From NCBI GenBank assembly GCA_015055525.1, contig SVHZ01000004.1, forward strand, positions 187 through 64,186: a stretch of 64,000 nt of DNA. Direction: 5' to 3'. Below are positions 2,769-51,053 of the stretch, in pieces. Positions within the stretch are counted from its first letter, which is position 1. Every line of letters starts with the position of its first letter. The position numbers were made by a program, and so were the translations under genes. The notes beneath the pieces are model-generated. The model was not told the origin of the DNA. It worked only from the letters and a program-made list of their open reading frames with translations, and did no database searches. This DNA is from Clostridiales bacterium. GTDB taxonomy: Bacteria > Bacillota > Clostridia > Christensenellales > Borkfalkiaceae.

Positions 2769-4325
<1,557 letters not shown>

Positions 4326-4578
4326 TTCCTTAACCCCCTTTATTTCTAATATAGTTAATATTCTTATTATACAATCGATTATAACCGTTGTCAAATAGCA
4401 AAAATTAGCATAAAGTTGAAAAAAAATAGCGTTTATTTAGGAAAAGACTAAACCTTTTTCGTTGGTTTTTGTTATACGCACTTTTATTATAACAGTAACT
4501 GCGTTTAATTGCAATATAAAACTTAAACACTTGAAAGTATCTCTATTTTATGTTATTATGTAAAAAAGGAGATTTAAT

Positions 4579-8444: not shown

Positions 8445-8475
8445 AAAAAAGGAACTCAACTGAGTTCCTTTTTTT
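8445..8475. terminator. Bidirectional terminator between the GH gene and MATE-1
   Basis: 9-bp stem aggaactca/tgagttcct flanked by A6 and T7. It overlaps the last codons of MATE-1. Confidence 0.7.
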
Positions 8476-9874
8476 GTGCTTCGAATTTTATTTTTAGTTT
8501 TTTCATAGCAGGGATTATTGCAATTAAATAAAGCGCAATAGTTATTACCCACGATACGGGATAAGTTGAATATATAAGCGTAAAGTTTTTGGTTAAGGCA
8601 TATATAATTTCAACGTAAATTATTCTAAAAATACAACCTGCAAATACTGCTATAAACATAGCGGTTAAACTCTTGCCTATTGCTCTTAACGAGTAACTTA
8701 GCGCGTTCATCGTTCCGCAAAGGAATAAGAAAATGCCTATTCCCATAAATCTTTGATAAGCGAAATCTAAAACGACTTGGTCGTTAGTTATTAAACCGAT
8801 AACCGGTTTTAATATAACTAGCGCGCCTAAACCAAAAGTTAAACCCATCGTAAAGTTTATTACCGTTCCTAAAATTATGGCCTTTTTCGCTCTTTCGTAA
8901 TTTTCTGCGCCCACGTTTTGACCTATTATGGTTATCAAAGCAGTTGCTACACCCGTCATAGCGTTGTTTACGTAGTTTTCTACTTGGCTTGAATACGATG
9001 CGCCAGCCATAGCAAATTCGCCAAACAAGTTAACCGTAGATTGTATAAATACGTTTGCTATTGAAAAAAGCGAACTTTGGATTCCTGATGGAATACCTAT
9101 TTTCAAAATATCAAGAAGTTCTTTTTTATAAAACTTAGCGTACTTAAATTCAAAACGAGCAACGCCTTTTGCTCTTAAAAGTTGAACGATACAAAGTACC
9201 GCCGCCACGCCTTGAGATATTACCGTTGCTATTGCAACGCCTTCAACGTCCATTTTAGCAACTACTATAAACAGCACGTTGAATAAAACGTTCAAAACAC
9301 CGCCTAATACGAGATAGATAAGCGGGCTTTTACTATCGCCCACCGCTCTTAAAACTGAGGAGTAAAAGTTATAGAGCATAACGAGTGGCATGCCGATAAA
9401 GTATATTTGAATATACTTTACTGCCATAGGAAGAACAGCCTCGTCACAATTCATTAAAATAAGCATAGGCTCGGATAAAAATAAGCCGACTAATACAAGC
9501 ATACCGCCGATAACTAAACTGAGCGGTAAACTCATACCGATTATTTTTTTAACCCCTTCATTATCGCTTGCACCAAGTTTTTTAGAAACGACAATGTTTG
9601 TTCCTATCGAAACGCCGACGAAGAAATTCGTAAAAAGATTTACGAGCGCCGTAGTAGAGCCAACGGCGGCAACCGCTCTATCGCTAACTAAAATACCTAA
9701 AACGGCAACGTCAGCCGTGTTGAACACGAGTTGCAAAACGTTAGTAAGTATTATGGGAATAGAAAAGAGAATAATTTGTTTGAACAAATTACCACTAGTA
9801 AAATCACGCTCGACTTTACCGTGAGTGCTCCTTACTATTACTTTGTGTGTGTTAACATTATGCCCCATAATCAA
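8456..9874 (-). CDS. MATE-family efflux transporter (paralogue 1 of 3)
   Basis: 472 aa and polytopic. The conserved N-terminal block GKVERDFTSGNLFKQIILFSIPIILTNVLQLVFNTADVAVLG is shared with the two upstream paralogues. Confidence 0.85.
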   Translation of the reverse strand: MIMGHNVNTHKVIVRSTHGKVERDFTSGNLFKQIILFSIPIILTNVLQLVFNTADVAVLGILVSDRAVAAVGSTTALVNLFTNFFVGVSIGTNIVVSKKLGASDNEGVKKIIGMSLPLSLVIGGMLVLVGLFLSEPMLILMNCDEAVLPMAVKYIQIYFIGMPLVMLYNFYSSVLRAVGDSKSPLIYLVLGGVLNVLFNVLFIVVAKMDVEGVAIATVISQGVAAVLCIVQLLRAKGVARFEFKYAKFYKKELLDILKIGIPSGIQSSLFSIANVFIQSTVNLFGEFAMAGASYSSQVENYVNNAMTGVATALITIIGQNVGAENYERAKKAIILGTVINFTMGLTFGLGALVILKPVIGLITNDQVVLDFAYQRFMGIGIFLFLCGTMNALSYSLRAIGKSLTAMFIAVFAGCIFRIIYVEIIYALTKNFTLIYSTYPVSWVITIALYLIAIIPAMKKLKIKFEAQKKELS

Positions 9875-11258
9875 AACCTTTTTCTTTTACACTTGACTCA
9901 ATTGAAACTTTTATTTTTTTGAGTACGCTTACTAAAACTACAAGTAACGCAACGGCAGTTATTCCCCAAGAAAGGGGGTATGCAACGAAAATTAAAGTGT
10001 AATTTTTATAAAAATCAAACACTAACTTTATCCAAAGAGTTATAACGCCAAAAGAACCTAAAAGGCTTATGATAGCGCTTATTAAACTCTTGTTTAATGC
10101 TCTTAGCGTGTTTGAAAGAACTTCCATTATTCCACACAAGAAATACGGCAACCCCACCATTAGCATTCTAATTAAAGCGTAATTTACAACTTCGCTATCG
10201 CCTGAAACCATAAAAATTGCAGGTTGGATTATAAGAGTTCCTATTATACCAGACCCTATACCGCCGATAGCAACTATTATAATGCTATACAAGATTGATT
10301 TTTTAATTCTTTCAAAGTTTTTTGCGCCGTTATTTTGGCCAACCATCGTCGTTATAGCAAGCGCTACGCCGTGAACGATACGATAAACGTAAATTTCTAT
10401 TTGATAAGCATAAGAAGAGCCTGCAACCGCTTTTTCACCGCAAGTGTTGATAGACGATTGAATTAACACGTTAGAGAAAGTTAAAAGCGCGCTTTGAACA
10501 CCGGCAGGTATTCCTATTTTTAGAACTTCTAACAATTCTTTTTTGTAAAATCTTATGCTTTTAACGTCAAGTTTAATTATCCCTTTTGCTCTTAAAAGCG
10601 CAATTAAGCAAAGCACGCTTGAAAGGCCTTGTGATACTGTGGTTGCAATGGCAACGCCTTCAACCGTCATTTTCAAAACGACGATGAAGAAAATATTTAA
10701 GATAACGTTAACAACACCGCCTATCATAAGATAAATAAGCGGACGTTTGCTATCGCCTGCCGCACGCATTATTGCCGCTAAAAAGTTATATAAAATTGCT
10801 AAGGGCGAACCTAAGAAATAAACTTTCAAATACGTAGTAGAAAGATCTATAAGCGCAGGGTCGCTTTTCATAAGTTCTAAAAAGAACCTTGCGCCAAAAT
10901 ATCCTATAATTAAAACAGCCGTGCCAAAGGTAATACCTAAAACAACGCTTAAGCCCACCACTTTTTTAACGCCTTCGCTATTTTTTGCCCCAAGATATTT
11001 TGATGCTAAAACGTTAACGCCTACGGAAACACCTAAAAATAGGCTTAATATTAAATTTACAAGAGAACTCGTTGAGCCAACCGCCGCAACGGCACTATCT
11101 CCAACCAACACGCCTAAAACGGCGATATCAACCGTGTTAAACAAACTTTGCAAAACGTTGGTTAATATTATTGGGATAGAAAATAAAATTATTTGGCTAA
11201 ACAAATTACCCTTAGTAAAATCATACTCGATTTTACCGCGAGTAGCGGTGTTTCCCAT
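9858..11258 (-). CDS. MATE-family efflux transporter (paralogue 2 of 3)
   Basis: 466 aa with the same conserved blocks (AAIMRAAGDSKRPLIYLMIGGVVNV is identical to paralogue 3). It overlaps paralogue 1 by 17 nt. Confidence 0.85.
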   Translation of the reverse strand: MGNTATRGKIEYDFTKGNLFSQIILFSIPIILTNVLQSLFNTVDIAVLGVLVGDSAVAAVGSTSSLVNLILSLFLGVSVGVNVLASKYLGAKNSEGVKKVVGLSVVLGITFGTAVLIIGYFGARFFLELMKSDPALIDLSTTYLKVYFLGSPLAILYNFLAAIMRAAGDSKRPLIYLMIGGVVNVILNIFFIVVLKMTVEGVAIATTVSQGLSSVLCLIALLRAKGIIKLDVKSIRFYKKELLEVLKIGIPAGVQSALLTFSNVLIQSSINTCGEKAVAGSSYAYQIEIYVYRIVHGVALAITTMVGQNNGAKNFERIKKSILYSIIIVAIGGIGSGIIGTLIIQPAIFMVSGDSEVVNYALIRMLMVGLPYFLCGIMEVLSNTLRALNKSLISAIISLLGSFGVITLWIKLVFDFYKNYTLIFVAYPLSWGITAVALLVVLVSVLKKIKVSIESSVKEKGFDYGA

Positions 11259-12655
11259 TATTTTTCCTCCGCTTCAAAAGTCAACTTTTTCACCATAGGC
11301 AAAAGAACCGCAAAACCAACGGCAGTAGTTACAATCCACGACACGGGGTAAGAAAGGTAAATGAGTGTTATATTTGGACTGATAGCGTTTACGACGCTTA
11401 CCCAAATAACTCTTAATATACACGCGCCAATGAGAGAAATTATCATACCCGTAAAACTCTTGCCAAGCCCACGCATAGAATAAGTTGCTATTTCCATAGT
11501 TCCGCACAAGAAATAAGGCAATCCCACGATAAGTATTCGATTAAACGCAATGGCTACAACTTCTTTATTTTCTGCCAAAACCCCAACTAACGGTTGGCAT
11601 ACTACGGCAGAAATTAAACCTAACACTATACCCACTACACTCGTTAAAATAGTCCCGTATAAAATAGTTCTTTTAATTCTTTCTTTATTTTTTGCGCCGT
11701 AGTTTTGGCTAATAAACGTCATAATAGCAACCGATACGGCGTTCATTGACGTATAAACGTACGCTTCGATTTGTTGAGCGTAAGAAACGCCCGCCATAGC
11801 AACGTTACCAAACTGATTGATTGAAGATTGAATAGTTACGTTTGAAAAAGAGAACAACGCGCTTTGAATCCCGGACGGAACGCCTATTCTTAAAACGTCT
11901 AAAAGGTCTTTTTTATAAAAACGAATATACTTGAATTTAAGTTGAACAGAGCCTTTTGCTCTTAAAAGTTGAATTAAGCAAAGCGCTGCGGCAATACCTT
12001 GAGCAACTACCGTTGCTATCGCAACGCCCTCAACCGTCATTTTCAAAACGGTTACGAAAAAGATATTCAAGCCTACGTTTACCACACCGCCTATCATAAG
12101 ATAGATAAGCGGGCGCTTGCTGTCGCCTGCCGCACGCATAATTGCCGCCAAAAAGTTATAGAGCATTACAAGCGGAACACCCAAAAAGTAAACTTGAAGA
12201 TAAGTGGTTGAAAGGTCTATAACGTTTTCATCCGACTTCATAAGCGTTAAAAAGAATCTTGAACCAAACCAACCCACAAATACTAAAACAAAACCGAAGA
12301 TAAGGCTTAAAAGTATGCTCATACCGATAACGCGCTTAGCACCTTCTTCATCGTGATTGCCAAGATGGCGTGAAACAACAACGTTAACGCCTATTGCTAA
12401 ACCTATGAAAAATCCCGTCAAAAGGTTTACGAGCGAACTTGTTGAACCTACCGCAGCAACGGCATTATCGCCAACTAATGCGCCTAAAACTGCAATATCT
12501 GCCGTATTGAAAACGAGTTGAAGAACGTTTGTAAGCAAAAGAGGCAAAAAGAATAAAAGCATTTGCTTAAAAATAGGACCCGTAGTAAAGTCCTTTTCTA
12601 TTTTGCCGTTTTTCATTAAACCTCGAATTTTAATTCGCCTTGTAAAACTGTTCAT
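11258..12655 (-). CDS. MATE-family efflux transporter (paralogue 3 of 3)
   Basis: 465 aa. It overlaps paralogue 2 by 1 nt. An alternative ATG at 12616 also has an SD, so the start is uncertain. Confidence 0.8.
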   Translation of the reverse strand: MNSFTRRIKIRGLMKNGKIEKDFTTGPIFKQMLLFFLPLLLTNVLQLVFNTADIAVLGALVGDNAVAAVGSTSSLVNLLTGFFIGLAIGVNVVVSRHLGNHDEEGAKRVIGMSILLSLIFGFVLVFVGWFGSRFFLTLMKSDENVIDLSTTYLQVYFLGVPLVMLYNFLAAIMRAAGDSKRPLIYLMIGGVVNVGLNIFFVTVLKMTVEGVAIATVVAQGIAAALCLIQLLRAKGSVQLKFKYIRFYKKDLLDVLRIGVPSGIQSALFSFSNVTIQSSINQFGNVAMAGVSYAQQIEAYVYTSMNAVSVAIMTFISQNYGAKNKERIKRTILYGTILTSVVGIVLGLISAVVCQPLVGVLAENKEVVAIAFNRILIVGLPYFLCGTMEIATYSMRGLGKSFTGMIISLIGACILRVIWVSVVNAISPNITLIYLSYPVSWIVTTAVGFAVLLPMVKKLTFEAEEK

Positions 12656-14047: not shown

Positions 14048-14084
14048 TTTGTTTGTTTAACTCAAAGTTTGTTCAATGCTCTAC

Positions 14085-14212
14085 TTTAAGGCGTTAGAAA
14101 CAAGTATTTCAAGGCTCGACAAGTGGGGGCGGGTACAATAGACCTTTTTGGTCATTGTAATCGTACACACTTGGCAGTTAACGCAGAAATACGCCGTTTT
14201 TAACGACTTAAA
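14085..14212. repeat. Dispersed ~125-nt hairpin element, copy a (type 1)
   Basis: Starts tttaaggcgttagaaac and ends gtttttaacgacttaaa, so the ends are inverted repeats. It has the central hairpin aatagacc-ttttt-ggtcatt and an internal stem caagtg/cacttg. Its terminal TTAA supplies the stop codon (14208-14210) of the upstream transporter gene. Confidence 0.8.
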
Positions 14213-15623: not shown

Positions 15624-15656
15624 TTTAGCGTTTGGCGAAATTCGCCAAACGCTAAA
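15624..15656. repeat. 33-bp perfect palindrome (16-bp arms) in the transporter leader
   Basis: tttagcgtttggcgaa-a-ttcgccaaacgctaaa, lying 16 nt upstream (minus sense) of the transporter start. Confidence 0.9.
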
Positions 15657-15696
15657 ATTATTGTTTTGTTTTGAGCAAAGTTTATTTATCCTTCAC

Positions 15697-15822
15697 TTTA
15701 AGACGTTAGAAACAAGCTAGGCAAGGCGTTTGAGATTTTGCGGAAGGGAGCGACCTACGTGGTCGCAGGAATTTCGAAAAATCGCAAAGAACAAAGCATA
15801 GCGCCGTTTATAACGGCTTAAA
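15697..15822. repeat. Dispersed ~125-nt hairpin element, copy b (type 2)
   Basis: Near-identical to copy d (38126-38251), with compensatory substitutions in the internal stem. It ends 1 nt from the stop codon of the FrdA-like gene. Confidence 0.85.
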
Positions 15823-17430
15823 TTACATATCTCCTCTTTTATAGTTAGGCAATAATTGCGGAGATACTTTACCAGTATTTACGCCTGCTTCTTTAAGTTC
15901 TTTGTTAAAGTCAGTTACGTGAGATAAAGTAAGTTTGCCAACTTTTACAGACTTACACTTTTCACTAGCATACTTACCAGCGTTTCTACCGAATACGATA
16001 ATATCAAGGAGTGAGTTACCCATAAGTCTGTTTCTACCGTGGATACCCCCTACTGCTTCGCCTGCTACGTATAAGTTTTCAACGAGCGTAGTTTGACCGT
16101 CTGCATCGATATCGATACCGCCGTTTTGATAGTGTAAAGTTGGATAAATAAGGATAGGTTCTTTTCTAATATCTATACCGTATTTACCAAACATTCTCAT
16201 CATTGCGGGAATTCTCTTTTCGATAGTGCCTTCGCCACCGATAATTTCAATCATCGGAGTATCAAGCCATACGCCTTCGCCGTCAGTAGTCTTAACGCCG
16301 TTACCACGACCTTTACATTCTCTAATGATAGTAGATGCAGTAACGTCACGAGTTTCAAGCGAATATACGAACGCTTCACCGTCTTTATTAACGAGTTGAG
16401 CGCCGAGCGAACGAACTTTTTCAGTAACGAGCGCGCCGTAAATTTGAGTGGGTTCAGCAGCGCCGGTCGGGTGATATTGTAAAGTATCAGCGTATAAGAG
16501 TTTTGCGCCTGCGCGGTAAGCGAGAACTAAGCCGTCTGCCGTTGCGCCGTAGTGGTTAGAAGTTGGGAATCCTTGATAGTGAAGTCTTCCTGCGCCACCG
16601 GTTGCAATAATAACGGTTTTTGCCTTAGCAATTAAGATTTCGCCAGTTTCCATATTTTGTAAAACTGCGCCTGCTGCTCTACCTTGATCGTCTTTGATAA
16701 TTTCAATCGCTGCAGTAAAGTCAACAACGGGGATTCCCCTATTCATAACTTCATCACGAAGAGTTCTCATGATTTCAGCGCCAGAATAGTCTTTACAAGC
16801 GTGCATTCTCTTTCTTGAAGTACCGCCACCGTGAGTGGTAACCATCTCGCCGTCAGCAGTTTTATCGAACATTACGCCGAGATCAGAAAGCCAACGAATA
16901 GCGTCTGGTGCTTCTTTAACGAGTTTTTCAAGAAGGCAAGGTTTAGCGGCAAAGTGACCGCCACCGAACGCGTCAAGATAGTGCTGAGCAGGGCTATCGT
17001 TAGGCTTATCAGCCGCTTGGATACCGCCTTCTGCCATCATTGAGTTAGCGTCGCCAATTCTAAGTTTAGTTACGATCATAACGTTTGCGCCGTTACCGTG
17101 AGCAGTAATTGCGGCAGAAGAACCTGCGCCACCGCCACCGATAACTAAAACGTCAACGTCATAGTCGGGATTTTTAAGGTCGATTTTCTTAGGGTCAAGT
17201 CTTGACTTGCCTTGTAAAAGATCTGCAAGTTCGTGAAGAACTTTTTCACCTTTGTTAGGGCCTACTTGTAAAGTTTCGTAAGCGCCTTCGATATAGTCGG
17301 GGTGGAATTCTTTAAGAACTGCATCTTTTTGTTCAGCAGTCATTCTTGCGTGAAGATTTTTAAGTCTTTCGCTTCTTGACGCTTCTACTTTCTTTATTGA
17401 ATCAAGTTGTTCTTGAGTATATTGATACAT
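15823..17430 (-). CDS. Soluble FrdA/SdhA/TfrA-type FAD flavoprotein (fumarate reductase catalytic subunit-like)
   Basis: 535 aa with the dinucleotide fold VLVIGGGGAGSSAA, plus MAEGGIQAA, the active-site LQYHPTG and GRNRLMGNSLLDIIVFG. A ~90-aa N-terminal extension is present. Confidence 0.75.
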   Translation of the reverse strand: MYQYTQEQLDSIKKVEASRSERLKNLHARMTAEQKDAVLKEFHPDYIEGAYETLQVGPNKGEKVLHELADLLQGKSRLDPKKIDLKNPDYDVDVLVIGGGGAGSSAAITAHGNGANVMIVTKLRIGDANSMMAEGGIQAADKPNDSPAQHYLDAFGGGHFAAKPCLLEKLVKEAPDAIRWLSDLGVMFDKTADGEMVTTHGGGTSRKRMHACKDYSGAEIMRTLRDEVMNRGIPVVDFTAAIEIIKDDQGRAAGAVLQNMETGEILIAKAKTVIIATGGAGRLHYQGFPTSNHYGATADGLVLAYRAGAKLLYADTLQYHPTGAAEPTQIYGALVTEKVRSLGAQLVNKDGEAFVYSLETRDVTASTIIRECKGRGNGVKTTDGEGVWLDTPMIEIIGGEGTIEKRIPAMMRMFGKYGIDIRKEPILIYPTLHYQNGGIDIDADGQTTLVENLYVAGEAVGGIHGRNRLMGNSLLDIIVFGRNAGKYASEKCKSVKVGKLTLSHVTDFNKELKEAGVNTGKVSPQLLPNYKRGDM

Positions 17431-31006: not shown

Positions 31007-31082
31007 TTTATCCTTGATTATTAAAAAAGTTTATTTAATGCTTGAGCAAGCTAGGCTTACTCAAAGTTGAGTTGAAAGATGT

Positions 31083-31207
31083 TTTAAGACGTTAGTTGCA
31101 AGCATATCAAGGCTCACTTTGGCGATAGGCTGAGATAGACCTTTTTGGTCATCGAAGTCTATCGGCTAAGTAGAAACGATGATAGGCGATGTAAATAACG
31201 GATTAAA
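31083..31207. repeat. Dispersed ~125-nt hairpin element, copy c (type 1)
   Basis: Runs from tttaagacgttag to aataacggattaaa, with the central hairpin gatagacc-ttttt-ggtcatc and an internal stem ggcgatag/ctatcggc. It sits between the T-box terminator and cysE. Confidence 0.75.
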
Positions 31208-31436
31208 AAAGCGTTCTTATGCTTTAACATAAGGACGCTTTTTAGTAACGTGGTTCCACCTTAATTGGTTCTCATTAAGCGTATAACGGCGCGACCCGTG
31301 GATAATTAGTCCCCCTTAACAGCAAAACGCACTTTCGCTCTTTTTCGGCGTGGGCTTTCACCTTACCCCACTCTCTTTAGCCTTAAAATAAGTTACTCTT
31401 TCTTGCAACGGTTTAATTATTTGTAATTTTATTTTA
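31205..31436 (-). promoter_or_regulatory. T-box leader (Cys specifier) with intrinsic terminator, preceding cysE-cysS
   Basis: The minus strand shows an AGAGAG stem-I element, a gaaagTGCg candidate specifier loop, the T-box sequence aattaaGGTGGAACCACGtta, and the terminator aaagcgtccttatg-ttaaag-cataagaacgcttttttaat. A TTGCGT-17-TAAAAT promoter lies at 31431-31459. Confidence 0.8.
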
Positions 31437-31556: not shown

Positions 31557-32840
31557 ATGATAGACATTAAACTTATTATTGAAAAACCCGAAGTCGTAAA
31601 GGCTTCGCTCAAAAAAAAGGGATATGACGTTGACTTTTCTGAAGTTATCGCGCTCGATGAAAAAAGGCGTTCTCTCTTAAAAGAAATTGAAGGTTTGAAA
31701 GCGGAAAGAAACAGAGTTTCTGCGGAAATTCCCAAACTTAAAAAGCAAGGTCTTCCCGTTGAAAACATCTTTGCTGAAATGCGCGCTATCGGCGATAAAA
31801 TTACTGCCGGCGATGCTGAAATTAACGAAGTTTCAGAAAAGATTTTCAACTTTATCGCTTGCCTTCCCAATATGCCGGACGATGATTTAGTTGCAGGCGA
31901 AAAAGAAGCAAACGAAGTTGTTAAGGTTTACGGCAAACTTCCCGAATTTAACTTCCCCGTTCAAAACCACGTTGACCTTTGCGTAAAAAACGGCCTTATC
32001 GATTATGAAAGAGGCGTTAAACTTGCAGGTAACGGTTTCTGGGCGTACCGTGGTGACGGCGCTAGGCTTGAATGGGCGCTCCTTAACTTCTTTATTTCTG
32101 AACACTTAAACGACGGTTACGAATTTATTTTGCCACCGCATCAACTTTCTTATAACTGTGGTTTTGGTGCAGGTCAATTCCCCAAGTTCTCTGACGAAGT
32201 TTACTGGCTTGACGTTGACGAGGACAGAAAGAAGAATAGATTTATGCTCCCAACTGCTGAAACTGCTCTCGTTAACCTTTACGCAGGCGAAATCGTTGAC
32301 GAATCAAAACTTCCTTTTAAGTTCTTTGCATACACTCCTTGTTATCGTAAAGAGGCAGGCTCGGCTCGTTCTGAAGAACGCGGTATGATAAGAGGTCACC
32401 AATTTAACAAAGTTGAAATGGTGCAATACACTACTCCCGAAGGGTCTGACAAGGCTTTTGAAGAACTCGTTAACAAGGCTTGTTCGCTTATGGATAAATT
32501 AGGTCTTCACTTTAGGCTTTCTAAACTTGCCGCGGGCGATTGTTCTGCATCAATGGCAAGAACTTACGACGTTGAAGTTTGGATTCCATCAATGGGAATA
32601 TTTAAGGAAGTATCTTCTGTTTCTAACGCAAGAGATTATCAAGCGAGAAGAAACAACACTAGATATAGAAATAAAGAAACGGGTAAACCTTGTTTCGTTC
32701 ACACTCTTAACGGTTCGGGCTTAGCAACTTCAAGAGTGTTCCCCGCTCTTATTGAACAATATCAAAATGCAGACGGATCAATCACCGTTCCCGAAGTATT
32801 AAGACCGTTCATGGGTGGACAAGAAGTAATTAAACTTTAA
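31557..32840 (+). CDS. serS: Serine--tRNA ligase
   Basis: 427 aa with an N-terminal coiled-coil arm and class II motifs (FRKEAGS-like CYRKEAGSA, GSGLATSRV). A TTGCAA-17-TATACT promoter lies upstream at 31497-31525. Confidence 0.95.
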   Translation: MIDIKLIIEKPEVVKASLKKKGYDVDFSEVIALDEKRRSLLKEIEGLKAERNRVSAEIPKLKKQGLPVENIFAEMRAIGDKITAGDAEINEVSEKIFNFIACLPNMPDDDLVAGEKEANEVVKVYGKLPEFNFPVQNHVDLCVKNGLIDYERGVKLAGNGFWAYRGDGARLEWALLNFFISEHLNDGYEFILPPHQLSYNCGFGAGQFPKFSDEVYWLDVDEDRKKNRFMLPTAETALVNLYAGEIVDESKLPFKFFAYTPCYRKEAGSARSEERGMIRGHQFNKVEMVQYTTPEGSDKAFEELVNKACSLMDKLGLHFRLSKLAAGDCSASMARTYDVEVWIPSMGIFKEVSSVSNARDYQARRNNTRYRNKETGKPCFVHTLNGSGLATSRVFPALIEQYQNADGSITVPEVLRPFMGGQEVIKL

Positions 32841-32847
32841 TTTAATA

Positions 32848-32889
32848 AATTAAAACCCCCGACGATCCCGTCGGGGGTTAGTTTTTAGT
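32848..32889. repeat. 42-bp direct repeat copy 1 (bidirectional terminator hairpin)
   Basis: aattaaaacccccgacgatcccgtcgggggttagtttttagt. It is identical to 33801-33842 except for one loop base. Confidence 0.95.
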
Positions 32890-33220
32890 AAACGTTTTCT
32901 AAATAAACACAAAGTTTAGGTATATCGTTTTGTAAAGTGTCGAGTATAACGTTTAAGTCCGTATGTCCGTAATCGTGAACTATTCTATTCCTTAAACCAC
33001 TTATTGAACTCCAAGCAATTTCTGTGTTTTTATTTTTGAAACTCTCAGTTAACTTGTTCGAATTTTCCGCAATTTGAATAAAGCGAAAAAATATTGAATC
33101 AAGCACGGTTTCATCACTTAAAATTTGTTCTTTAGTGTATTTTTTAGATAAACCCATCAAATATCTTACGTCCACAAGTATTTTATCAACGTAATATCTA
33201 TCATTTTTTATATTATCCAT
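32885..33220 (-). CDS. hepT: HepT-like (DUF86) toxin of a type VII TA system
   Basis: 111 aa with the RX4HXY motif in GLRNRIVHDYGH. It overlaps the mntA-like gene by 8 nt. Confidence 0.8.
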   Translation of the reverse strand: MDNIKNDRYYVDKILVDVRYLMGLSKKYTKEQILSDETVLDSIFFRFIQIAENSNKLTESFKNKNTEIAWSSISGLRNRIVHDYGHTDLNVILDTLQNDIPKLCVYLENVY

Positions 33221-33683
33221 AGATTTTTACTCCACTTGAAAATATTTCATTTGTTAATTCAAAATTGTTTTTAATTTGCTCTTGATTTAGCAAATCAACT
33301 TTCTTTTTAAGTTCAATGCGCAAATCTTCAACAAGCCCAAAAAATCTTAAACCCGTTTCTTTAGTGGACACAAATAAATCAACGTCACTCGTAGGCGTTG
33401 CCTTGCCTTTTGCGTACGAACCAAACAAATAACAATAGTCTACTTTATAATTTGAAAATACGCGCACGCAAGCCTCCTTAATTAATTCAACGGTTAAAAT
33501 CCCCGTTTCTTCATCAATAAATCCATACTCGCTAAGCACTTGACACATTGCTTTATATTTAATATTTGATTGCTTATTTTCATCATTTTCATACTTTGCA
33601 TAAGTCCTACGAGTTACGCCTATTATAACCGACGCCTCTTCTTGAGACAGCCCTTTTTGTTTTCTAATATCTTTAAGTTTCAT
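33213..33683 (-). CDS. mntA: XRE-HTH fused to an MntA-type nucleotidyltransferase antitoxin
   Basis: 156 aa with an N-terminal HTH (LSQEEASVIIGVTRRTYAKYE) and the NTase motif GSYAKGKATPTSDVDLFV. Confidence 0.8.
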   Translation of the reverse strand: MKLKDIRKQKGLSQEEASVIIGVTRRTYAKYENDENKQSNIKYKAMCQVLSEYGFIDEETGILTVELIKEACVRVFSNYKVDYCYLFGSYAKGKATPTSDVDLFVSTKETGLRFFGLVEDLRIELKKKVDLLNQEQIKNNFELTNEIFSSGVKIYG

Positions 33684-33790: not shown

Positions 33791-33800
33791 TACTTTTCCA

Positions 33801-33842
33801 AATTAAAACCCCCGACGATTCCGTCGGGGGTTAGTTTTTAGT
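33801..33842. repeat. 42-bp direct repeat copy 2 (terminator of the downstream lipoprotein gene)
   Basis: aattaaaacccccgacgattccgtcgggggttagtttttagt. Confidence 0.95.
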
Positions 33843-35810
33843 TTAGTTAAAAAATTCGTTCTTTTTGCCTAATTGTTGTTTAAGTTCAGCATAAGTAACT
33901 TTTTCTTTAACAACTTTTAACGTTTCAACAAAGTTTGAAATATTTGCACTTGCAACACTTAAACTAGACGTTGGTAAAGAAGGCGTAGTTGCAAAAGTAT
34001 TTTTATTCATTTCGGTAACTTCACTTGCAAAACTTGAAGAACTATTCGATTGTACAAACAACATAGGAATTTCAGTTTCAACAACCTTATATTCTGCGTT
34101 TTCTCCGCTACCCGTCTTTACAACGTAATAAACGGTTTTCATTTCAATATCAAATCTTCTTGACGTTTTAATTGTAAGTTTCGTGTTATATTTAGGCTCG
34201 AATTTATTACTTGAATTATTAACGTATACGTCGTGATGGTTTTTACTTGGAAGAGTTTCACTATTCTTTATTAGTTTTACACTATTAATTCCCGAAACGT
34301 CGCTAAGTTTTACCCAATAAGTATCGTATTCAACAAGTTTGTTGGTTTCTATAACTTCCGCTGAAAGATATTCGCCAGTTTTTGCAGAATACACTTCTTC
34401 GTAACCTTCAATAAGCAAGTCATCGCTTTCTCTTTTTGCACTTGCAACGATTGCGTAGTTTTCGTTAAAAGATATAATGGCACTCGTTTTTAATGCAACT
34501 GATTCCGCTCCCGTATATTCGTAAAAATATCCCGTTACGTTATCATCATCTCTTACAAACTCAACTTGTTTCATCGCCAAAACGCCTTTTACTGTAAGCG
34601 CTACGTTAAATTTAAGATAATCGTCACGCATTTCGTAATTCAAAATAGAGTTTTCCGAAATTTGAATTCTACCTTTATTAACGTTATTTTCAGAATCAGC
34701 ATAAAGTTCCAAGGCAAACGCGCTATTACCTACAAGCATTGTACTTTGCTTATTGTTAACCACAATTTTTATATTAAAACCAGCCACCGAACCCGTCCAC
34801 TCGTTATAGTTATCTGGGTTATCGTTCATAAAATTTTGATAAGTTGCCGCTATCGTTTCACCAACGGCAAAAACGGCGTCGAACTTTCCTAAAAGCGAGT
34901 CCATCTCTTTAACGCCTTCCCATAAAACGTACATTTGCTTGCCAATGAATTTATCATTGATTGATGACACGCTTACGTTCTTTGAAAAATCTAAAATCGG
35001 ACTATTTGAACAAGCAAGGCTTTCTGTTGCAAATGCATCTGGTAAGAAAGACCAAGGATCAGGTCTTTGCATTATTGTATCAATAACTGCTTTTGCATTA
35101 CCAACAACTTGTGAAACGCTTGTTATAGTTAACGTTGCAGATAAAGTTTTATCAATATAGTTGGGGTTTTTTAAGGTTGCAGTTGCATTATATACACCAG
35201 CAACACTTGCCTTGTTGTTTGTGTAAACAATTTGAGTGTTTTCTGGAAGGGTCCCTTCGACCGTTATAGATTTTTCAGTTCCCGTAGAAACAAAGGTTTT
35301 ACTTTCAAACTTAATGTTTGATGGGAAATTTATCTTTTTAATAGTTAATTTTGCAGAATCAACGTAAGTATTATAACCTTCCGCGCTTATGCTTACTGAA
35401 ATATTGTATTCGCCCGCATTTATAAACGGACCACCGTTTGTATAAGTTATCGTTGCTTGAGCGGGCGCTCCCGTTACGAAAATAGTATGTTCGTTGCCGT
35501 CATAATCAATCGTTAAATCATTAAACGTTATATTTGTAAACGATTCTTTCGAAGGGTTGCTCGGCTGTTCTGGGTTACTCGGTTGTTCTGGGTTACTCGG
35601 TTGTTCTGGGTTGCTTGGTTGTTCCGGATTGCTCGGTTGTTCCGGATTGCTCGGCTGTTCTGGGTTACTCGGTTGTTCTGGGTTGCTCGGTTGTTCTGAA
35701 CCCGCAGGCGGAGCGGTTTGAGAATTGTCGCTAGAGCCACCGCAAGCAATCAATCCACAAAAAGCAAAAACCGTAAGTAATAGCACTAATAATTTTTTGA
35801 TTGTTTTCAT
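33843..35810 (-). CDS. Surface lipoprotein with (EQPSNP)x8 linker and MBG-like beta-rich domains; function unknown
   Basis: 655 aa with a signal peptide and lipobox (FCGLIAC), eight perfect EQPSNP repeats, and segments such as YDGNEHTIFVTG...NAGEYNISVS...AKLTIKK that resemble MBG-type domains. Confidence 0.75.
   Translation of the reverse strand: MKTIKKLLVLLLTVFAFCGLIACGGSSDNSQTAPPAGSEQPSNPEQPSNPEQPSNPEQPSNPEQPSNPEQPSNPEQPSNPEQPSNPSKESFTNITFNDLTIDYDGNEHTIFVTGAPAQATITYTNGGPFINAGEYNISVSISAEGYNTYVDSAKLTIKKINFPSNIKFESKTFVSTGTEKSITVEGTLPENTQIVYTNNKASVAGVYNATATLKNPNYIDKTLSATLTITSVSQVVGNAKAVIDTIMQRPDPWSFLPDAFATESLACSNSPILDFSKNVSVSSINDKFIGKQMYVLWEGVKEMDSLLGKFDAVFAVGETIAATYQNFMNDNPDNYNEWTGSVAGFNIKIVVNNKQSTMLVGNSAFALELYADSENNVNKGRIQISENSILNYEMRDDYLKFNVALTVKGVLAMKQVEFVRDDDNVTGYFYEYTGAESVALKTSAIISFNENYAIVASAKRESDDLLIEGYEEVYSAKTGEYLSAEVIETNKLVEYDTYWVKLSDVSGINSVKLIKNSETLPSKNHHDVYVNNSSNKFEPKYNTKLTIKTSRRFDIEMKTVYYVVKTGSGENAEYKVVETEIPMLFVQSNSSSSFASEVTEMNKNTFATTPSLPTSSLSVASANISNFVETLKVVKEKVTYAELKQQLGKKNEFFN
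35553..35696 (-). repeat. Coding 18-bp tandem repeat x8 (EQPSNP)
   Basis: Units of ggttgttctgggttactc and variants. Another frame on the same strand gives the spurious ORF 35528..35749. Confidence 0.95.
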
Positions 35811-37892: not shown

Positions 37893-38014
37893 TTAATTTG
37901 CTATTTACTTCGTTATGCTTCGTTTCTGCTCATCGTTTGACCTTCAATGACCAAAAGGTCTATTTCAACTCAAACGTTTCGCGAGCCTTGCCTAACTCGC
38001 ATCTAGCAAATTAA
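37893..38014. repeat. Dispersed ~125-nt hairpin element, copy e (type 1, inverted orientation)
   Basis: It has perfect 11-bp terminal inverted repeats, ttaatttgcta/tagcaaattaa. Its reverse complement aligns to copies a and c (ggcaaggctcg, aatagacc-tttt-ggtcatt, agaaacg), with an internal stem cgtttga/tcaaacg. Confidence 0.75.
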
Positions 38015-38125
38015 CTACTTTGCATTTCGGCAAGAGATATTTTCGCTTTGCGAAAGTGATATTTTTTGTTAGAAACAAAAAGTTGTGGATATTTCGATGA
38101 AAACTAAGCTTATTCATCGCTCTCT

Positions 38126-38251
38126 TTTAAGGCGTTAGAAACAAGCTAGGCGAGGCGTTTGTAGTTTTTCGGAAGGGAGCGACCTTGTTGGTCGCAGGAA
38201 TTTTGAAAAACTGCAAAGAACAAAGCATAGCGCCGTTTATAACGACTTAAA
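38126..38251. repeat. Dispersed ~125-nt hairpin element, copy d (type 2)
   Basis: Aligns end to end with copy b. Its last 15 nt form the final codons (FKSL) and the stop of ORF 38237..39628. Confidence 0.85.
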
Positions 38252-39660: not shown

Positions 39661-40581
39661 TTATCTTATTTTTGATTGATTCTTTTCCAAAAATTCTATG
39701 ATATCGCAAATTCTATCAAGGTCGTCAGTCGTATAATAATCGATATAAATTCTACCTTTTTTATCGTTGCCGATTGCTTGAACCTTAGTTCCTAAAACTT
39801 GTTGCATACGAGAAATAAGGTCTTTAAGTTCTGCGCTTTGATCTTGCTTTCTCTTAATTTCGCGAAGTCTTTTCTTTTCTTCGGGCGGATTGAAATAGTC
39901 TTTAACTTCCCTTTCAATATCTCTAACGGACATACCGTCTGAAACGCTCTTTTTAGCAATTTTAACTTGCGCGTCGATAGGTAACGTTACGAGCGCTCTC
40001 GCGTGGCCTTGAGAAAGTTTACCGTCGGAAACCATTTTGATAACCTGCGCGTCTAAACTCAAAAGTCTAAGCGTGTTAGCGATTGCAGAACGACTTTTTC
40101 CTATTCTTTCAGAAAGTTCTTCTTGGGTAAGACCATAATCGTCCATAAGTTGTTTCATTGCCGTTGCCGATTCTATGGGGTTAAGGTCTTCTCTTTGCAA
40201 GTTTTCAATTAACGAGATTTCTTGAATCTTTCTTTCGTCGTAATCTTTAATGATTGCGGGTATCGTTTCAAGCCCAACCATCTTTGATGCGCGAAAACGC
40301 CTTTCACCTGCGATTATCATATACTTGCCGTTCTCGTCCTTATTCAAAACGATAGGCATAATTACGCCGTTAACTTTGATTGAAGACGCAAGCTCGTCAA
40401 GAGCCTTGGGGTCAAAAACCTTTCTCGGCTGAGATGGGTTTGGATAAATATCTGCTATTTTTATTTCCAAAACACCCGTTTTAATATCTTCTTCGGTTAC
40501 ACCGAAGGTCTTTTTGTAATCTTCTTCCGTTGAAGAAAAGAGTGCGGATAAACCTTTACCTAAACCTTTATTATTCGCCAT
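39661..40581 (-). CDS. parB: ParB/Spo0J chromosome partitioning protein
   Basis: 306 aa with the ParB box IIAGERRFRA and an HTH (LTQEELSERIGKSRSAIANTLRLL). Confidence 0.9.
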   Translation of the reverse strand: MANNKGLGKGLSALFSSTEEDYKKTFGVTEEDIKTGVLEIKIADIYPNPSQPRKVFDPKALDELASSIKVNGVIMPIVLNKDENGKYMIIAGERRFRASKMVGLETIPAIIKDYDERKIQEISLIENLQREDLNPIESATAMKQLMDDYGLTQEELSERIGKSRSAIANTLRLLSLDAQVIKMVSDGKLSQGHARALVTLPIDAQVKIAKKSVSDGMSVRDIEREVKDYFNPPEEKKRLREIKRKQDQSAELKDLISRMQQVLGTKVQAIGNDKKGRIYIDYYTTDDLDRICDIIEFLEKNQSKIR

Positions 40582-41350
40582 CTTCTACCTCTCCTTTTGC
40601 TAAGAATTCTTTTGTGAGTTCTTCATAAGCCCTTGCGCCTGAACACTTGGGGTCGTGAATCATTACGGGTACACCGTGACTCGGCGCTTCCGAAACCCTA
40701 ATGTTTCTCGGAACAACCGTCTTAAACACTTTCTTATCAAAGAACTTTCTAATTTCTTCGGCAATCTGCCTTGAAACTATTGCCCTTCCGTCGTACATCG
40801 TGAGCGAAACACCCTCGATTTCAAGTTTTTTGTTAAGGTGTTTCTTTACGAGTTTAATCGTGTTCATAAGTTGCGATAAACCTTCTAACGCAAAGTATTC
40901 GCATTGAATAGGAATAATTATGCTATCAGACGCGGTGAGCGCGTTTATCGTTAAAAGCCCAAGCGACGGTGGACAGTCAATCGTAATATAATCGTAATAT
41001 TTTGCAACCGATTTGATGGCTTCTTGAAGACGTTTTTCTCTATTTTTGATATAAACGAGTTCAACTTCTGCGCCGGCAAGGTCTATGCCCGCGGGCAAAA
41101 TATCAAGCCTATCGATTTTCGTGGGAATTATAACGTCTTTAACTGCCGTTTCATCAACTAAAACGTTGTAAATAGAGTTTTTAACGGCACTTTTATTAAG
41201 CCCAAGCCCCGTGGTCGCATTTCCTTGCGGGTCCATATCCACAATCAAAACTTTCTTGCCGTACTTTGCAAGGCACGCCGATAAATTAACGCAAGTGGTA
41301 GTTTTTCCTACGCCACCTTTTTGGTTAGAGAACGAAATTATTTTGCCCAT
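40571..41350 (-). CDS. parA: ParA/Soj partitioning ATPase
   Basis: 259 aa with the deviant Walker A motif NQKGGVGKTT. Confidence 0.9.
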   Translation of the reverse strand: MGKIISFSNQKGGVGKTTTCVNLSACLAKYGKKVLIVDMDPQGNATTGLGLNKSAVKNSIYNVLVDETAVKDVIIPTKIDRLDILPAGIDLAGAEVELVYIKNREKRLQEAIKSVAKYYDYITIDCPPSLGLLTINALTASDSIIIPIQCEYFALEGLSQLMNTIKLVKKHLNKKLEIEGVSLTMYDGRAIVSRQIAEEIRKFFDKKVFKTVVPRNIRVSEAPSHGVPVMIHDPKCSGARAYEELTKEFLAKGEVEDGE

Positions 41351-50018: not shown

Positions 50019-50369
50019 ATAGATAACTCCTTTTATTTTAGATATAAAATAATAGTAATAATAGATAACGTTAAAATGTTTATAAAAAATTAAAATTCGT
50101 TAAAAATAACCATTTTATAAGAAAAAATAGAAAAAATAACGAAGTTGATAAAAAGTTAATAAAAAAATAAACCATTAATAAAGTTAAATTTTATAAACGC
50201 CGAATACTATAATATTAACATATATATTATATATAATAAATACTAAAAAATCAATAAATTTTGAAAAGTAAAAAGAAAATTTTGAAATATAAACAAATAT
50301 ATTAACATTGTTGATAAAAAGACGTTAATAAAAATTGAAAAGTTAAAAAAAATGTGATATAATCTCACT

Positions 50370-51053
50370 ATGTTTGAGATTTTGAAGATAAAAAACTTAA
50401 TAGAGAGCGAAGAACAAGAGAAAAAACTCTATGAGTTTTTAACTTTACTTAAAGAGTGGAATCAAAAATTTAATCTCACTTCTATAAAAGAAGATAAAGA
50501 AATTGAGATAAAACATTTTGAAGACTGTTTAGTGGGTGCAAAGTTTTTTCCTTATAATAAAAAAGTTGTTGAAATAGGTAGCGGTGGTGGGTTTCCATCA
50601 ATTCCCGTTATGATAGTTAGAAACGATTTATCTTTTACTTTGGTTGAATCTGTTGGTAAAAAGTGTGAGTTTTTAAGGAACGTTATAAAAACTCTTAACT
50701 TAAACGCCGTGGTAATAAACAAAAGAGCGGAAGATTTAGGAAAAGATAGCAAGTTTAGAGAGAGTTTTGACGTTGTTACTGCAAGGGCGGTTGCAAACCT
50801 TAACACTTTATCAGAGTATACCCTTCCTTTAATAAAAAAAGGCGGTATTTTCATCGCTTATAAGAGCCAAAACAACGAAATAATATCTGCTAAAAAAGCA
50901 ATTAAAATTCTCGGCGGAAAAGAGCGAGAAACTTTTAACTATTCTCTTTCAGAAAACGCTGGAGAAAGATGTTTATATATTATTGAAAAAGTTGAAAACA
51001 CACCCCCTTTATATCCGCGCGGAAACGGTAAGGAAAGGAGTAAGCCTTTATGA
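50370..51053 (+). CDS. rsmG: 16S rRNA (guanine527-N7)-methyltransferase
   Basis: 227 aa with the SAM motif EIGSGGGFPSIP. A TTGAAA-17-TATAAT promoter lies at 50334-50362. Confidence 0.9.
   Translation: MFEILKIKNLIESEEQEKKLYEFLTLLKEWNQKFNLTSIKEDKEIEIKHFEDCLVGAKFFPYNKKVVEIGSGGGFPSIPVMIVRNDLSFTLVESVGKKCEFLRNVIKTLNLNAVVINKRAEDLGKDSKFRESFDVVTARAVANLNTLSEYTLPLIKKGGIFIAYKSQNNEIISAKKAIKILGGKERETFNYSLSENAGERCLYIIEKVENTPPLYPRGNGKERSKPL

What the first reader, a model, noticed from the sequence alone, without database searches (positions are those of the whole stretch)
15697..15822. Family of five ~125-nt intergenic hairpin elements with conserved ends and compensatory stem changes (REP/MITE-like or a novel structured RNA)
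Copies: a 14085-14212, b 15697-15822, c 31083-31207, d 38126-38251, and e 37893-38014 (inverted). All begin TTTAAGRCGTTAG (e: TTAATTTGCTAG) and end with its complement ..TAACGRCTTAAA (e: TAGCAAATTAA), so the outer stem covaries in copy e. All contain CAAGGC near the 5' side, AGAAAC on the 3' side and an apical GACC-loop-GGTC hairpin. The middle stem has a different sequence in each copy but always pairs: a caagtg/cacttg, c ggcgatag/ctatcggc, e cgtttga/tcaaacg. Copies b and d are near-identical, but the stem differs by a double compensatory swap (b GA..TC, d AG..CT). A purine-purine mismatch is kept in the outer stem (A.G in b, G.A in d). There are two subtypes: a/c/e share AATAGACC-TTTT-GGTCAT, and b/d share GGAAGGGAGCGACC...GGTCGCAGGAATT. 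Four copies share a CAAAGT motif about 20 nt upstream. Retention of pairing despite sequence change argues for selection on structure rather than recent copying alone.
Basis: seen in the sequence. Interest (0 to 1): 0.7.

Follow-up and report, generated by a model that had tools for sequence, protein, structure and literature searches.

The report
Hairpin repeats anchored at stop codons
The five 125-base hairpins are real members of a large, undescribed family of repeated DNA elements in gut Christensenellaceae-like bacteria. The elements sit on the stop codons of genes and almost always face the same way, so they look like a mobile element that spreads by an unusual route.

Summary
All five copies exist at the stated coordinates. 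A covariance model built only from copies in other genomes recovers them at 106-120 bits and finds nothing else in the window. No Rfam family matches. A pattern scan plus model search found more than 150 further copies in about 34 Christensenellaceae/Clostridia MAGs from herbivore guts. Across 136 copies, 89% of pair cells are standard pairs (30-39% for slid controls) and 36 of 39 pairs show double changes, although typical copies are only about 62% identical.

New findings:
- The 3' end of the 'TTTAAG' strand lies on the TAA stop codon of a gene on the opposite strand in 56 of 81 arrays. About 9% is expected for random non-coding TTAA sites.
- Cross-species empty sites show insertion at the native T-TAA stop.
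- Orientation is polar: 51 versus 6 arrays, and 94 of 101 copies lie on the C-rich strand.
- The better-folding, G.U-rich, purine-rich strand is antisense to the genes.
- Arrays are polar and contain one-sidedly truncated older copies.
- No transposase was found nearby.

Verdict: this is a new non-autonomous mobile palindromic repeat, like a MITE or REPIN, with unusual stop-codon targeting and strand polarity. How it moves is unknown.

The parts
14085..14212 (+). Copy a, full hairpin unit. The TAA stop codon of the Asp-Al_Ex permease gene (minus strand, 14208-14210) lies inside its terminal CTTAAA.
14057..14084 (+). Tail on the side of copy a away from the gene (TTAA + CTCAAAGTTTGTTCAATGCTCTAC). 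It lies between the hairpin and the glyA (SHMT) start.
15697..15822 (+). Copy b, full hairpin unit. The stop codon of the FAD flavoprotein gene (minus strand, 15823-15825) abuts its 3' end.
15673..15696 (+). Tail of copy b (GAGCAAAGTTTATTTATCCTTCAC).
31083..31207 (+). Copy c, full hairpin unit. Its terminal TTAAA overlaps the U-tract of the T-box leader terminator on the minus strand, so it sits between that leader and cysE-cysS.
31044..31082 (+). A 5'-arm fragment of an older copy (GAGCAAGCTAGGC) followed by the tail (TTACTCAAAGTTGAGTTGAAAGATGT), upstream of copy c.
   Evidence: (comparison with L067 mini units)
38126..38251 (+). Copy d, full hairpin unit. The last four codons and the TAA stop (38237-38239) of the LPG_synthase_C/GNAT gene (minus strand) are encoded inside it.
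38103..38125 (+). Tail of copy d (ACTAAGCTTATTCATCGCTCTCT).
37893..38014 (-). Copy e, a full hairpin unit in the minority orientation and not at a stop codon. It is absent from the orthologous spacer of L077 and L003.
31208..31412 (-). Context only, not part of the element: the T-box leader and its terminator, directly upstream (in gene sense) of copy c.

Best explanation
The five hairpins belong to a previously undescribed family of non-autonomous mobile palindromic repeats in Christensenellaceae-related Clostridia. In kind they resemble MITEs, REPINs and ERIC elements.

A unit is a roughly 125-nt imperfect hairpin, usually with a tail of about 6-25 nt on one side.

Shown here:
- Units sit at T-TTAA-A sites that coincide with the native TAA stop codon of a gene.
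- Nearly all have one polarity relative to gene and replication direction.
- They pile up into polar arrays. The intact copy lies next to the stop codon, and older, one-sidedly truncated copies lie further away.
- Orthologous sites in different species carry unrelated subtypes.
- The hairpin is maintained through massive sequence change.

Inferred:
- New units arrive repeatedly at the TTAA next to the stop codon and push older copies outward, where they decay.
- The element is recognised as a folded single strand by an enzyme supplied in trans. The folded strand would be the one reading TTTAAGRCGTTAG, which lies on the leading-strand template and is antisense to the genes. The enzyme could be a tyrosine HUH transposase (RAYT-like) or a recombinase, but it has not been identified.

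Once in place, the unit is necessarily transcribed as the 3' end of the upstream mRNA. It may be tolerated there, or mildly useful as a 3' hairpin.
For: The models found 136 + 17 copies in about 34 MAGs and metagenome contigs. None were in IMG/VR.

Structure: 89.3% of cells are paired against 70.5% in shuffles and 30-39% in slid controls, and 36 of 39 pairs show double changes. Median identity between copies in one genome is only 62%.

Mobility:
- Empty orthologous sites exist. L114 and L117 read ATT TAA, while L115 reads ATT TAA followed by two copies. L024 is empty where L078 is occupied, and L036 is empty where L087 and L075 are occupied. L112 carries an intrinsic terminator where window copy a and L111 carry the element.
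- The site of copy d carries unrelated subtypes in the window, L003 and L077, and copy e is lineage-specific.
- Pairs of copies at different loci in one genome are 95-97% identical.

Stop-codon anchoring: 56 of 81 arrays end within -17 to +3 nt of a stop codon, and 29 arrays sit at exactly -6. About 9% of non-coding TTAA sites lie at stop codons.

Polarity:
- Arrays antisense to both flanking genes outnumber sense arrays 51 to 6, p = 6e-10.
- GC skew along the reading strand is negative in 94 of 101 copies, including 28 of 34 in convergent and 6 of 7 in '++' contexts.
- Every contig with two or more loci carries its copies in one orientation.

Strand asymmetry:
- G.U pairs number 214 and A.C pairs 55.
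- The reading strand is more stable in 115 of 123 copies, median -6.5 kcal/mol.
- A strain variant of copy d has two stem changes that keep pairing only on the reading strand.

Polar decay: 73 fragments keep the 5' part and 9 keep the 3' part.
Against: - No transposase, integrase or reverse transcriptase occurs in the window. None recurs among 661 ORFs flanking copies in other genomes. The mobilising enzyme is therefore purely inferred.
- Same-species metagenome contigs show no presence/absence polymorphism at sites c, d and e.
- TTAA belongs to the terminal inverted repeat, so a true target-site duplication cannot be told apart from the element's own ends. The base outside TTAA also covaries.
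- The better-folding strand lies on the leading-strand template. This is the opposite of the rule for IS608-type single-strand transposons, as I recall it.
- Orientation relative to genes and orientation relative to replication are confounded.
- All empty sites are cross-species comparisons at 57-87% protein identity.
- The sevenfold excess at stop codons has no demonstrated mechanism.
Confidence: 0.6

Rival explanations
1. Host-selected cis-acting mRNA element. The hairpin, read in gene sense directly after the stop codon, would act as a 3'-end stabiliser, a processing site or a terminator substitute. Selection for that role, rather than insertion specificity, would explain the position and orientation.
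For: - The position in gene sense is exact: the element starts at the stop codon in 69% of arrays.
- Many copies lie between co-directional genes.
- Occupancy of a site is conserved across species, although subtypes differ.
- Empty relatives carry simple hairpins or terminators at the same place.
- REP and ERIC elements are reported to alter the stability of upstream mRNA (PMC3184786).
Against: - Structure is optimised on the other strand. In gene sense the G.U pairs become A.C mismatches (214 versus 55), and the fold is weaker in 115 of 123 copies.
- No U-tract follows the hairpin on either strand.
- In the window the native hairpin downstream of copy b is retained.
- Copy c lies in a 5' leader after a T-box terminator, and copy e lies upstream of a gene in the opposite orientation.
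- Arrays and decayed copies are typical of selfish spread.
Confidence: 0.2
2. Ordinary MITE moved by a DDE transposase of an IS family that duplicates TTAA or YTAR. Insertion orientation would be random at first. The observed polarity would arise later, because copies whose more stable strand lies on the lagging-strand template (or in the mRNA) are deleted or deleterious.
For: - The elements have terminal inverted repeats, TTAA at both ends, and a single TTAA at empty sites.
- They are small and non-coding.
- The target context T-TTAA-A is palindromic.
- Internal-deletion 'mini' copies are consistent with palindrome instability.
Against: - A 51:6 and 94:7 polarity is very strong for a purely post-insertion filter.
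- No IS with matching ends was seen in about 0.8 Mb of flanking sequence.
- Conserved asymmetric internal loops, purine-purine mismatches and G.U bias go beyond what a transposase needs at its inverted-repeat ends.
- The excess at stop codons is not predicted.
Confidence: 0.12
3. Multi-copy structured RNA read from the TTTAAG strand. It could be a family of small antisense RNA genes convergent with gene ends, or an RNA that spreads through reverse transcription, like a SINE.
For: - G.U pairs, purine-rich loops and conserved internal-loop motifs (CAAGGCUCG and GCAGUAAC; AAGGGA and AGGAA in the b/d subtype) are typical of structured RNA on that strand.
- The RNA 3' end ...CUUAAA could pair with the target TTTAA. 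This is my inference.
Against: - No conserved promoter lies upstream and no terminator downstream.
- Fragments are 3'-truncated 73 to 9. Target-primed reverse transcription would give the opposite pattern.
- No reverse transcriptase is nearby.
- There is no Rfam relative.
Confidence: 0.05
4. attC-like recombination sites of an integron-like system. The folded strand antisense to the ORF would be recombined by a tyrosine recombinase.
For: The geometry matches my recollection of attC and VCR sites:
- imperfect palindromes of about 125 nt that begin at or overlap the ORF stop codon;
- conserved ends, a variable paired middle and conserved unpaired bases;
- the functional strand antisense to the ORF and on the leading-strand template.
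Against: - The flanking genes are housekeeping genes in conserved synteny (glyA, cysE-cysS with its T-box, parAB), not cassettes.
- The core-site order is reversed: GTTAGAA lies at the 5' end and TTATAAC at the 3' end, rather than RYYYAAC...GTTRRRY.
- No integrase was found.
- Tandem copies occur with no ORF between them.
Confidence: 0.03

Closest known systems
REPINs (REP doublets forming hairpins) mobilised by RAYT tyrosine transposases, described in Pseudomonas and enterobacteria (PMC3116915)
   Same: - Non-autonomous, about 100-130 nt, and fold as one long hairpin.
- The two ends are highly conserved, while the middle is poorly conserved but keeps pairing through compensatory changes.
- There are hundreds of copies, which persist in a lineage.
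- Singlets, doublets and clusters all occur.
- The proposed single-strand intermediates are asymmetric and leave remnants.
   Different: - There is no GTAG or CGTC tag.
- The ends are AT-rich TTTAAG.
- No RAYT gene was found.
- The host is a Firmicute-like Clostridia lineage.
- Strict anchoring on stop codons and replichore-wide polarity are not among the REPIN features I know of.
ERIC (127 bp, enterobacteria), Correia/NEMIS (Neisseria) and RUP (S. pneumoniae) MITEs (table in PMC3184786)
   Same: - Imperfect palindromes of 100-160 bp lying in transcribed regions near the 3' ends of genes.
- Terminal inverted repeats flanked by short AT-rich target repeats.
- They fold as RNA hairpins.
   Different: - There is no sequence similarity.
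- The target is TTAA at stop codons rather than TA.
- Orientation bias is extreme.
- Structure is optimised on the strand antisense to the genes.
bcr1 repeats of the Bacillus cereus group (about 155 bp)
   Same: - A Firmicute interspersed repeat flanked by a 5-bp AT-rich direct repeat.
- Its distribution is not conserved between strains.
- Compensatory changes maintain an RNA-level structure.
   Different: [quoted passage not shown]
- There is no reported stop-codon anchoring or polarity.
- The sequences are unrelated.
Integron attC sites and Vibrio cholerae repeats (VCR, about 125 bp); from my own knowledge, not tested against a library
   Same: - Similar length.
- Structure is conserved rather than sequence.
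- Unpaired bases are conserved.
- The site starts at or overlaps the ORF stop codon.
- The active strand is antisense to the ORF and lies on the leading-strand template.
   Different: There are no cassettes, no integrase and no RYYYAAC/GTTRRRY arrangement. The flanking genes are syntenic housekeeping genes.
IS200/IS605 family and their miniature derivatives (PATEs); from my own knowledge
   Same: - Strand-specific and linked to replication.
- Recognised by structure.
- They insert next to a short AT-rich motif.
- They tolerate G.T pairs and mismatches in hairpins.
   Different: - Those elements have two separate subterminal hairpins, not one end-to-end hairpin.
- Their active strand lies on the lagging-strand template. 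Here the better-folding strand lies on the leading-strand template.

Membership tests
MITE (non-autonomous derivative of a DDE insertion sequence) | Short (<300 bp), non-coding, with terminal inverted repeats | tested here: met
   Units are 122-128 nt. The ends TTTAAGRCGTTAG and CTAACGYCTTAAA pair with each other.
MITE (non-autonomous derivative of a DDE insertion sequence) | Target-site duplication flanking each copy, with a single copy of the target at empty sites | tested here: inconclusive
   TTAA lies at both ends and once at empty sites. However, TTAA is also part of the inverted repeat, and the next base outward covaries.
MITE (non-autonomous derivative of a DDE insertion sequence) | A parent IS with the same ends in the same or related genomes | tested here: inconclusive
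   None was found in the window or in about 0.8 Mb of flanks from 34 MAGs. Whole genomes could not be scanned.
REPIN / REP-RAYT system | Two inverted conserved end modules separated by a poorly conserved spacer that keeps hairpin pairing | tested here: met
   See the conservation profile and the covariation counts.
REPIN / REP-RAYT system | A RAYT (Y1 HUH transposase) gene flanked by the repeats | tested here: inconclusive
   No such ORF is in the window or recurs among 661 flanking ORFs. Complete genomes were not available.
REPIN / REP-RAYT system | A GTAG or CGTC tetranucleotide tag at the end of each 20-40 nt REP palindrome | tested here: not met
   The ends read TTTAAGRCGTTAG. There is no GTAG or CGTC tag at either end of the consensus. 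The criterion comes from the abstract of PMC3733652.
Any Rfam RNA family (release 15) | Covariance-model score at or above the family's gathering threshold | tested here: not met
   At gathering threshold the window gives only two tRNAs. Permissive scans over copies c, d and e give nothing credible on the elements.
Integron attC site | R''/R' core sites RYYYAAC ... GTTRRRY at the two ends of the palindrome | tested here: not met
   Each arm reads GTT-NNN-AAC (GTTAGAAAC and GTTTATAAC). The order is reversed relative to attC.
Integron attC site | Arrays of promoterless cassettes next to an intI integrase | tested here: not met
   The flanking genes are syntenic housekeeping genes and a T-box leader. 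No integrase was found.
IS200/IS605-type miniature element (PATE) | Separate subterminal hairpins at the left and right ends, with the active strand on the lagging-strand template | tested here: not met
   There is one end-to-end hairpin. The better-folding strand lies on the C-rich strand, i.e. the leading-strand template, in 94 of 101 copies.
Intrinsic (Rho-independent) terminator | GC-rich stem-loop directly followed by a U-tract | tested here: not met
   No T-run follows the hairpin on either strand. The scan flags only a weak local 6-bp hairpin inside one arm.

The most novel reading that the evidence does not exclude
The family may be a new class of single-strand hairpin mobile element in Firmicute-like bacteria. 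An as yet unidentified enzyme would recognise the folded strand, with its conserved purine-purine mismatches and internal loops, and would couple insertion to the T-TAA stop codon of leading-strand genes in a replication-polar way. Successive insertions at the same stop codon would push older copies outward, like a conveyor belt.
Probability: 0.2. Interest if true: 0.85.

Novelty: new variant of a known kind. Interest (0 to 1): 0.62.

Why it matters
- **A new way of choosing a target.** If the element really targets stop codons in a strand- and replication-polar way, that is a mode of target choice not described, to my knowledge, for bacterial repeats. It predicts an undiscovered enzyme that acts on folded single strands.
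- **Annotation and assembly.** The family is abundant. There are five copies in 64 kb here, and many MAG contigs end in a copy. It therefore probably breaks assemblies of Christensenellaceae-like genomes and alters the C-termini and 3' UTRs of housekeeping genes, for example the last four codons of the gene ending inside copy d. Annotators would benefit from a model for it.
- **A case study in structure conservation.** Copies are about 60% identical in sequence but about 90% paired. The family can be used to ask how selection, or a copying mechanism, keeps a palindrome folded.

Tried and rejected
- **Known RNA family.** Rfam scans at gathering and permissive thresholds found nothing on the elements. 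They did reveal a sub-threshold T-box leader next to copy c.
- **5' leader or riboswitch of the downstream genes.** Rejected: four of the five copies are antisense to the flanking genes, and the anchoring is to the stop codon of the upstream gene.
- **Intrinsic terminator.** Rejected: there is no U-tract.
- **Own promoter in the conserved upstream 'CAAAGT' region.** No sigma-70-like site was found and conservation is only about 50% per position. The region behaves as a tail or decayed unit.
- **Phage origin.** The single pattern hit in IMG/VR is not an element.
- **Associated transposase.** All-against-all clustering of 661 flanking ORFs gave only housekeeping families. Pfam annotation of the window ORFs found no transposase, integrase or reverse transcriptase. 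A search for distant arm pairs found only partial units beside full ones.
- **Retro-element (target-primed reverse transcription).** Disfavoured: truncated copies keep the wrong end, 73 to 9.
- **Strain-level polymorphism.** Same-species JGI and ENA contigs have the same spacer lengths at sites c, d and e. Model and pattern searches of a subset confirm the same copies there.
- **Orientation flip across the replication origin.** The 20 kb to the right of the origin in the same species holds no copy, so this could not be tested.
- **Exact look-up of SHMT.** Nothing was found.

Full report
**1. The observation**

They align end to end with 75% mean column identity. Read as TTTAAGRCGTTAG..., each folds into a single long imperfect hairpin of -41 to -50 kcal/mol, with z-scores of -4.7 to -8.4 against dinucleotide shuffles. 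RNAalifold predicts 39 pairs, and 19 of them show compensatory changes among just these five copies.

Small corrections are that d has CGAGGC rather than CAAGGC, and b and d have AGAACA rather than AGAAAC.

A covariance model built from the five copies finds them and nothing else in 64 kb. A second model built only from 136 copies in other genomes recovers all five at 106-120 bits. The complementary strand scores 18-24 bits where it scored at all, which was for three of the five copies. Rfam has no matching family.

**2. A large family in one clade**

I scanned one genome per species for the degenerate 5' motif. All but three were MAGs labelled Christensenellaceae or Clostridia, from yak, sheep, goat and roe-deer guts. 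The three exceptions were chance matches with no model hit.

The model found 136 copies in the first 100 loci and 17 more in later loci. None were found in viral contigs. Same-species metagenome contigs carry the same arrangement as the window.

**3. Structure is conserved while sequence is not**

On the 136-copy alignment, 89.3% of pair cells are standard pairs. The figure is 70.5% for column shuffles and 30-39% when partners are slid by one to three columns. Double changes occur in 36 of the 39 pairs. That alignment was fitted to the model and so leans towards the structure, but the margin over the controls is very large.

Copies within one genome are a median 62% identical, about the same as copies from different genomes. 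A few pairs at different loci reach 95-97%.

Conserved sequence lies at the ends (TTAA, TAG, ATAAC) and in unpaired or loop positions: CAAGGCTCG, GCAGTAAC and the apex. At least two subtypes persist across species, an a/c/e type and a b/d type with GGAAGGGAGCGACC...GGTCGCAGGAATT. Each shows compensatory variation of its own.

**4. The two strands are not equivalent**

On the strand reading TTTAAG there are 214 G.U pairs against 55 A.C pairs. That strand folds more stably than its complement in 115 of 123 copies, by a median of 6.5 kcal/mol. It is also purine-rich (A 33%, G 25%, C 17.5%).

A strain variant of copy d carries two substitutions in one stem strand. They keep pairing only on this strand, through G.U.

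**5. Position and polarity (new)**

In the window, copies a, b and d lie antisense to co-directional genes. Their 3' ends sit on the stop codons of the permease, FAD-protein and LPG-synthase/GNAT genes.

Across all loci, counting arrays rather than copies:
- 51 arrays are antisense to both neighbouring genes and 6 are sense (p = 6e-10).
- 30 arrays lie between convergent genes and 3 between divergent genes.
- In 56 of the 81 arrays that face a gene end, the 3' terminus is within -17 to +3 nt of that gene's stop codon. In 29 arrays it sits at exactly -6, meaning the TAA lies inside the terminal TTTAA.
- Only about 9% of non-coding TTAA sites in the same sequences coincide with a stop codon.
- The opposite end of the element never abuts a stop codon.

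Cross-species empty sites agree with this picture:
- L114 and L117 read ...ATT TAA followed by unique sequence. L115 reads ...ATT TAA followed by two copies and a mini copy.
- L024 reads GAT TAA AAATATT. L078 has the same codons followed by a unit.
- L036 reads TTT TAA AAAGG, while L087 and L075 are occupied.
- L112 has ATG TAA plus an ordinary terminator where the window and L111 carry copy a.

The target context is T-TTAA-A. Copy c shows that a stop codon is not obligatory. It begins in the TTTTTTAA at the end of a T-box terminator, upstream of cysE-cysS.

**6. Polarity follows the replichore**

GC skew of the surrounding 8 kb, read along the TTTAAG strand, is negative in 94 of 101 copies. 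This includes 28 of 34 copies between convergent genes and 6 of 7 of the exceptional copies that are sense to their neighbours. Every contig that contributed two or more loci carries its copies in one orientation, over distances up to about 190 kb.

The window itself contains a GC-skew minimum and a 28% GC stretch near 50.2 kb. Nearby genes are dnaN, rnpA, yidC, jag, gidB and parAB, so this is probably the replication origin. All five copies lie to its left, where genes run on the minus strand.

The better-folding strand therefore lies on the leading-strand template. Gene direction and replication direction are largely confounded and I could not separate them fully. The 20 kb to the right of the origin in the same species holds no copy.

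**7. Arrays and decay**

Many loci carry tandem full copies separated by about 4-6 nt, or a full copy preceded on the side away from the gene by partial units.

A profile search found 139 full copies and 86 fragments. Of the fragments, 73 keep the 5' part of the TTAAG-reading strand, with ends clustering at model positions 35-43 and 61-77. Only 9 keep the 3' part.

Fragments are followed by a tail of 16-25 nt, often AACTCAAAGYYTATTCAAYGCTCT, and then by the next full copy. It is weakly co-inherited with the hairpin subtype at non-orthologous sites, and it appears to be included in the L078 insertion.

Orthologous sites carry unrelated subtypes in different species, and L027 retains only one arm plus a tail at site b.

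The simplest reading, which is an inference, is repeated arrival at the TTAA next to the stop codon, with older copies displaced outward and eroded. I have no explanation for the one-sided truncation. It does argue against target-primed reverse transcription, which would leave the other end.

**8. What it is**

The weight of evidence points to a non-autonomous mobile repeat: hundreds of dispersed and tandem copies, empty sites, turnover of subtypes at a site, near-identical paralogues, and decayed copies.

Its closest known kinds are REPINs and the ERIC, Correia and bcr1 type of hairpin MITE. REPINs share the conserved ends, the poorly conserved but paired middle and the proposed single-strand intermediate.

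It fails specific membership tests:
- It has no GTAG or CGTC tag.
- No RAYT gene or parent IS was found. The search covered only the window and flanks.
- It lacks the attC core-site arrangement, cassettes and integrase.
- It lacks IS200/IS605-type end architecture, and its better-folding strand is on the 'wrong' template strand for that family.

The polarity and strand asymmetry make a single-strand intermediate the most economical mechanism, but that step is inferred.

Two alternatives remain open: a host-selected role as a 3' hairpin in the mRNA, and a conventional DDE MITE filtered by selection. An independent RNA gene or a retro-element is unlikely.

**9. Verdict**

This is a new variant of a known kind of element. 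It has three unusual and unexplained properties: anchoring on stop codons, replichore-wide polarity, and structure optimised on the strand antisense to the genes. These properties justify moderate to high interest.

Noticed in passing
window 31228-31412 (-), terminator to about 31205: A T-box leader upstream of cysE (hexapeptide transferase) and cysS. It scores 77 bits (E 7.6e-17), below Rfam's gathering score of 93, so a default scan misses it. Copy c is inserted between its terminator and the first gene.
   Followed up: partly
window about 50000-50400: Probable chromosomal replication origin. The cumulative GC-skew minimum falls here and the surrounding 4-kb window is 28% GC. It is flanked by dnaN (48918-50018 -), rnpA, yidC and jag on one side and gidB (50370-51053 +) on the other, with parAB at 39661-41350. 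No dnaA was seen among the window ORFs I annotated.
   Followed up: partly
window 15624-15656: A 33-nt hairpin (TTTAGCGTTTGGCGAAATTCGCCAAACGCTAAA; 15 pairs in the scan) between copy b and the permease start. It is conserved in L027, and unrelated simple hairpins occupy the same spacer in more distant relatives. It may be an operator or an intercistronic RNA hairpin.
   Followed up: partly
window 32838-32889 and 33791-33842, flanking 32885-33683: Two 90%-identical GC-rich terminator-like hairpins (AAAACCCCCGACGAT[C/T]CCGTCGGGGGTTAGTTTTT) bracket a HepT-like RNase and MNT nucleotidyltransferase/HTH toxin-antitoxin pair. This may be a small inserted module.
   Followed up: no
window 8456-12655 (-): Three tandem ORFs of 465-472 aa show repeat families at 1370-1417 nt spacing. 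Only the third (11258-12655) was checked, and it is a MatE efflux protein. This looks like a local gene triplication.
   Followed up: no
window 3987-4152 within ORF 2769-4394 (-): A run of 9-nt repeats encodes a collagen-like triplet region in a protein that also has GDSL-lipase and Listeria-Bacteroides repeat domains.
   Followed up: no
window 35536-35714 within ORF 33843-35810 (-): Seven 18-nt tandem repeats lie inside a 655-aa protein with an MBG domain. The number of repeats may vary between strains.
   Followed up: no
L127 (same species as the window), copy d: A strain variant of copy d differs by two substitutions (T to C and A to G) in the 3' strand of the middle stem. Both keep pairing on the TTTAAG strand through G.U or G-C, and would be mismatches on the complement.
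   Followed up: partly
window 53513-54285 (-): radC appears as two adjacent ORFs: UPF0758 N-terminal domain (140 aa) and RadC JAB domain (110 aa). This could be a split gene or a frameshift. The same split is called in the same-species contig L133.
   Followed up: no
window 57697-59085 (-): A 462-aa protein combines a TIR domain with a GNAT acetyltransferase domain. It is a possible defence-type gene.
   Followed up: no
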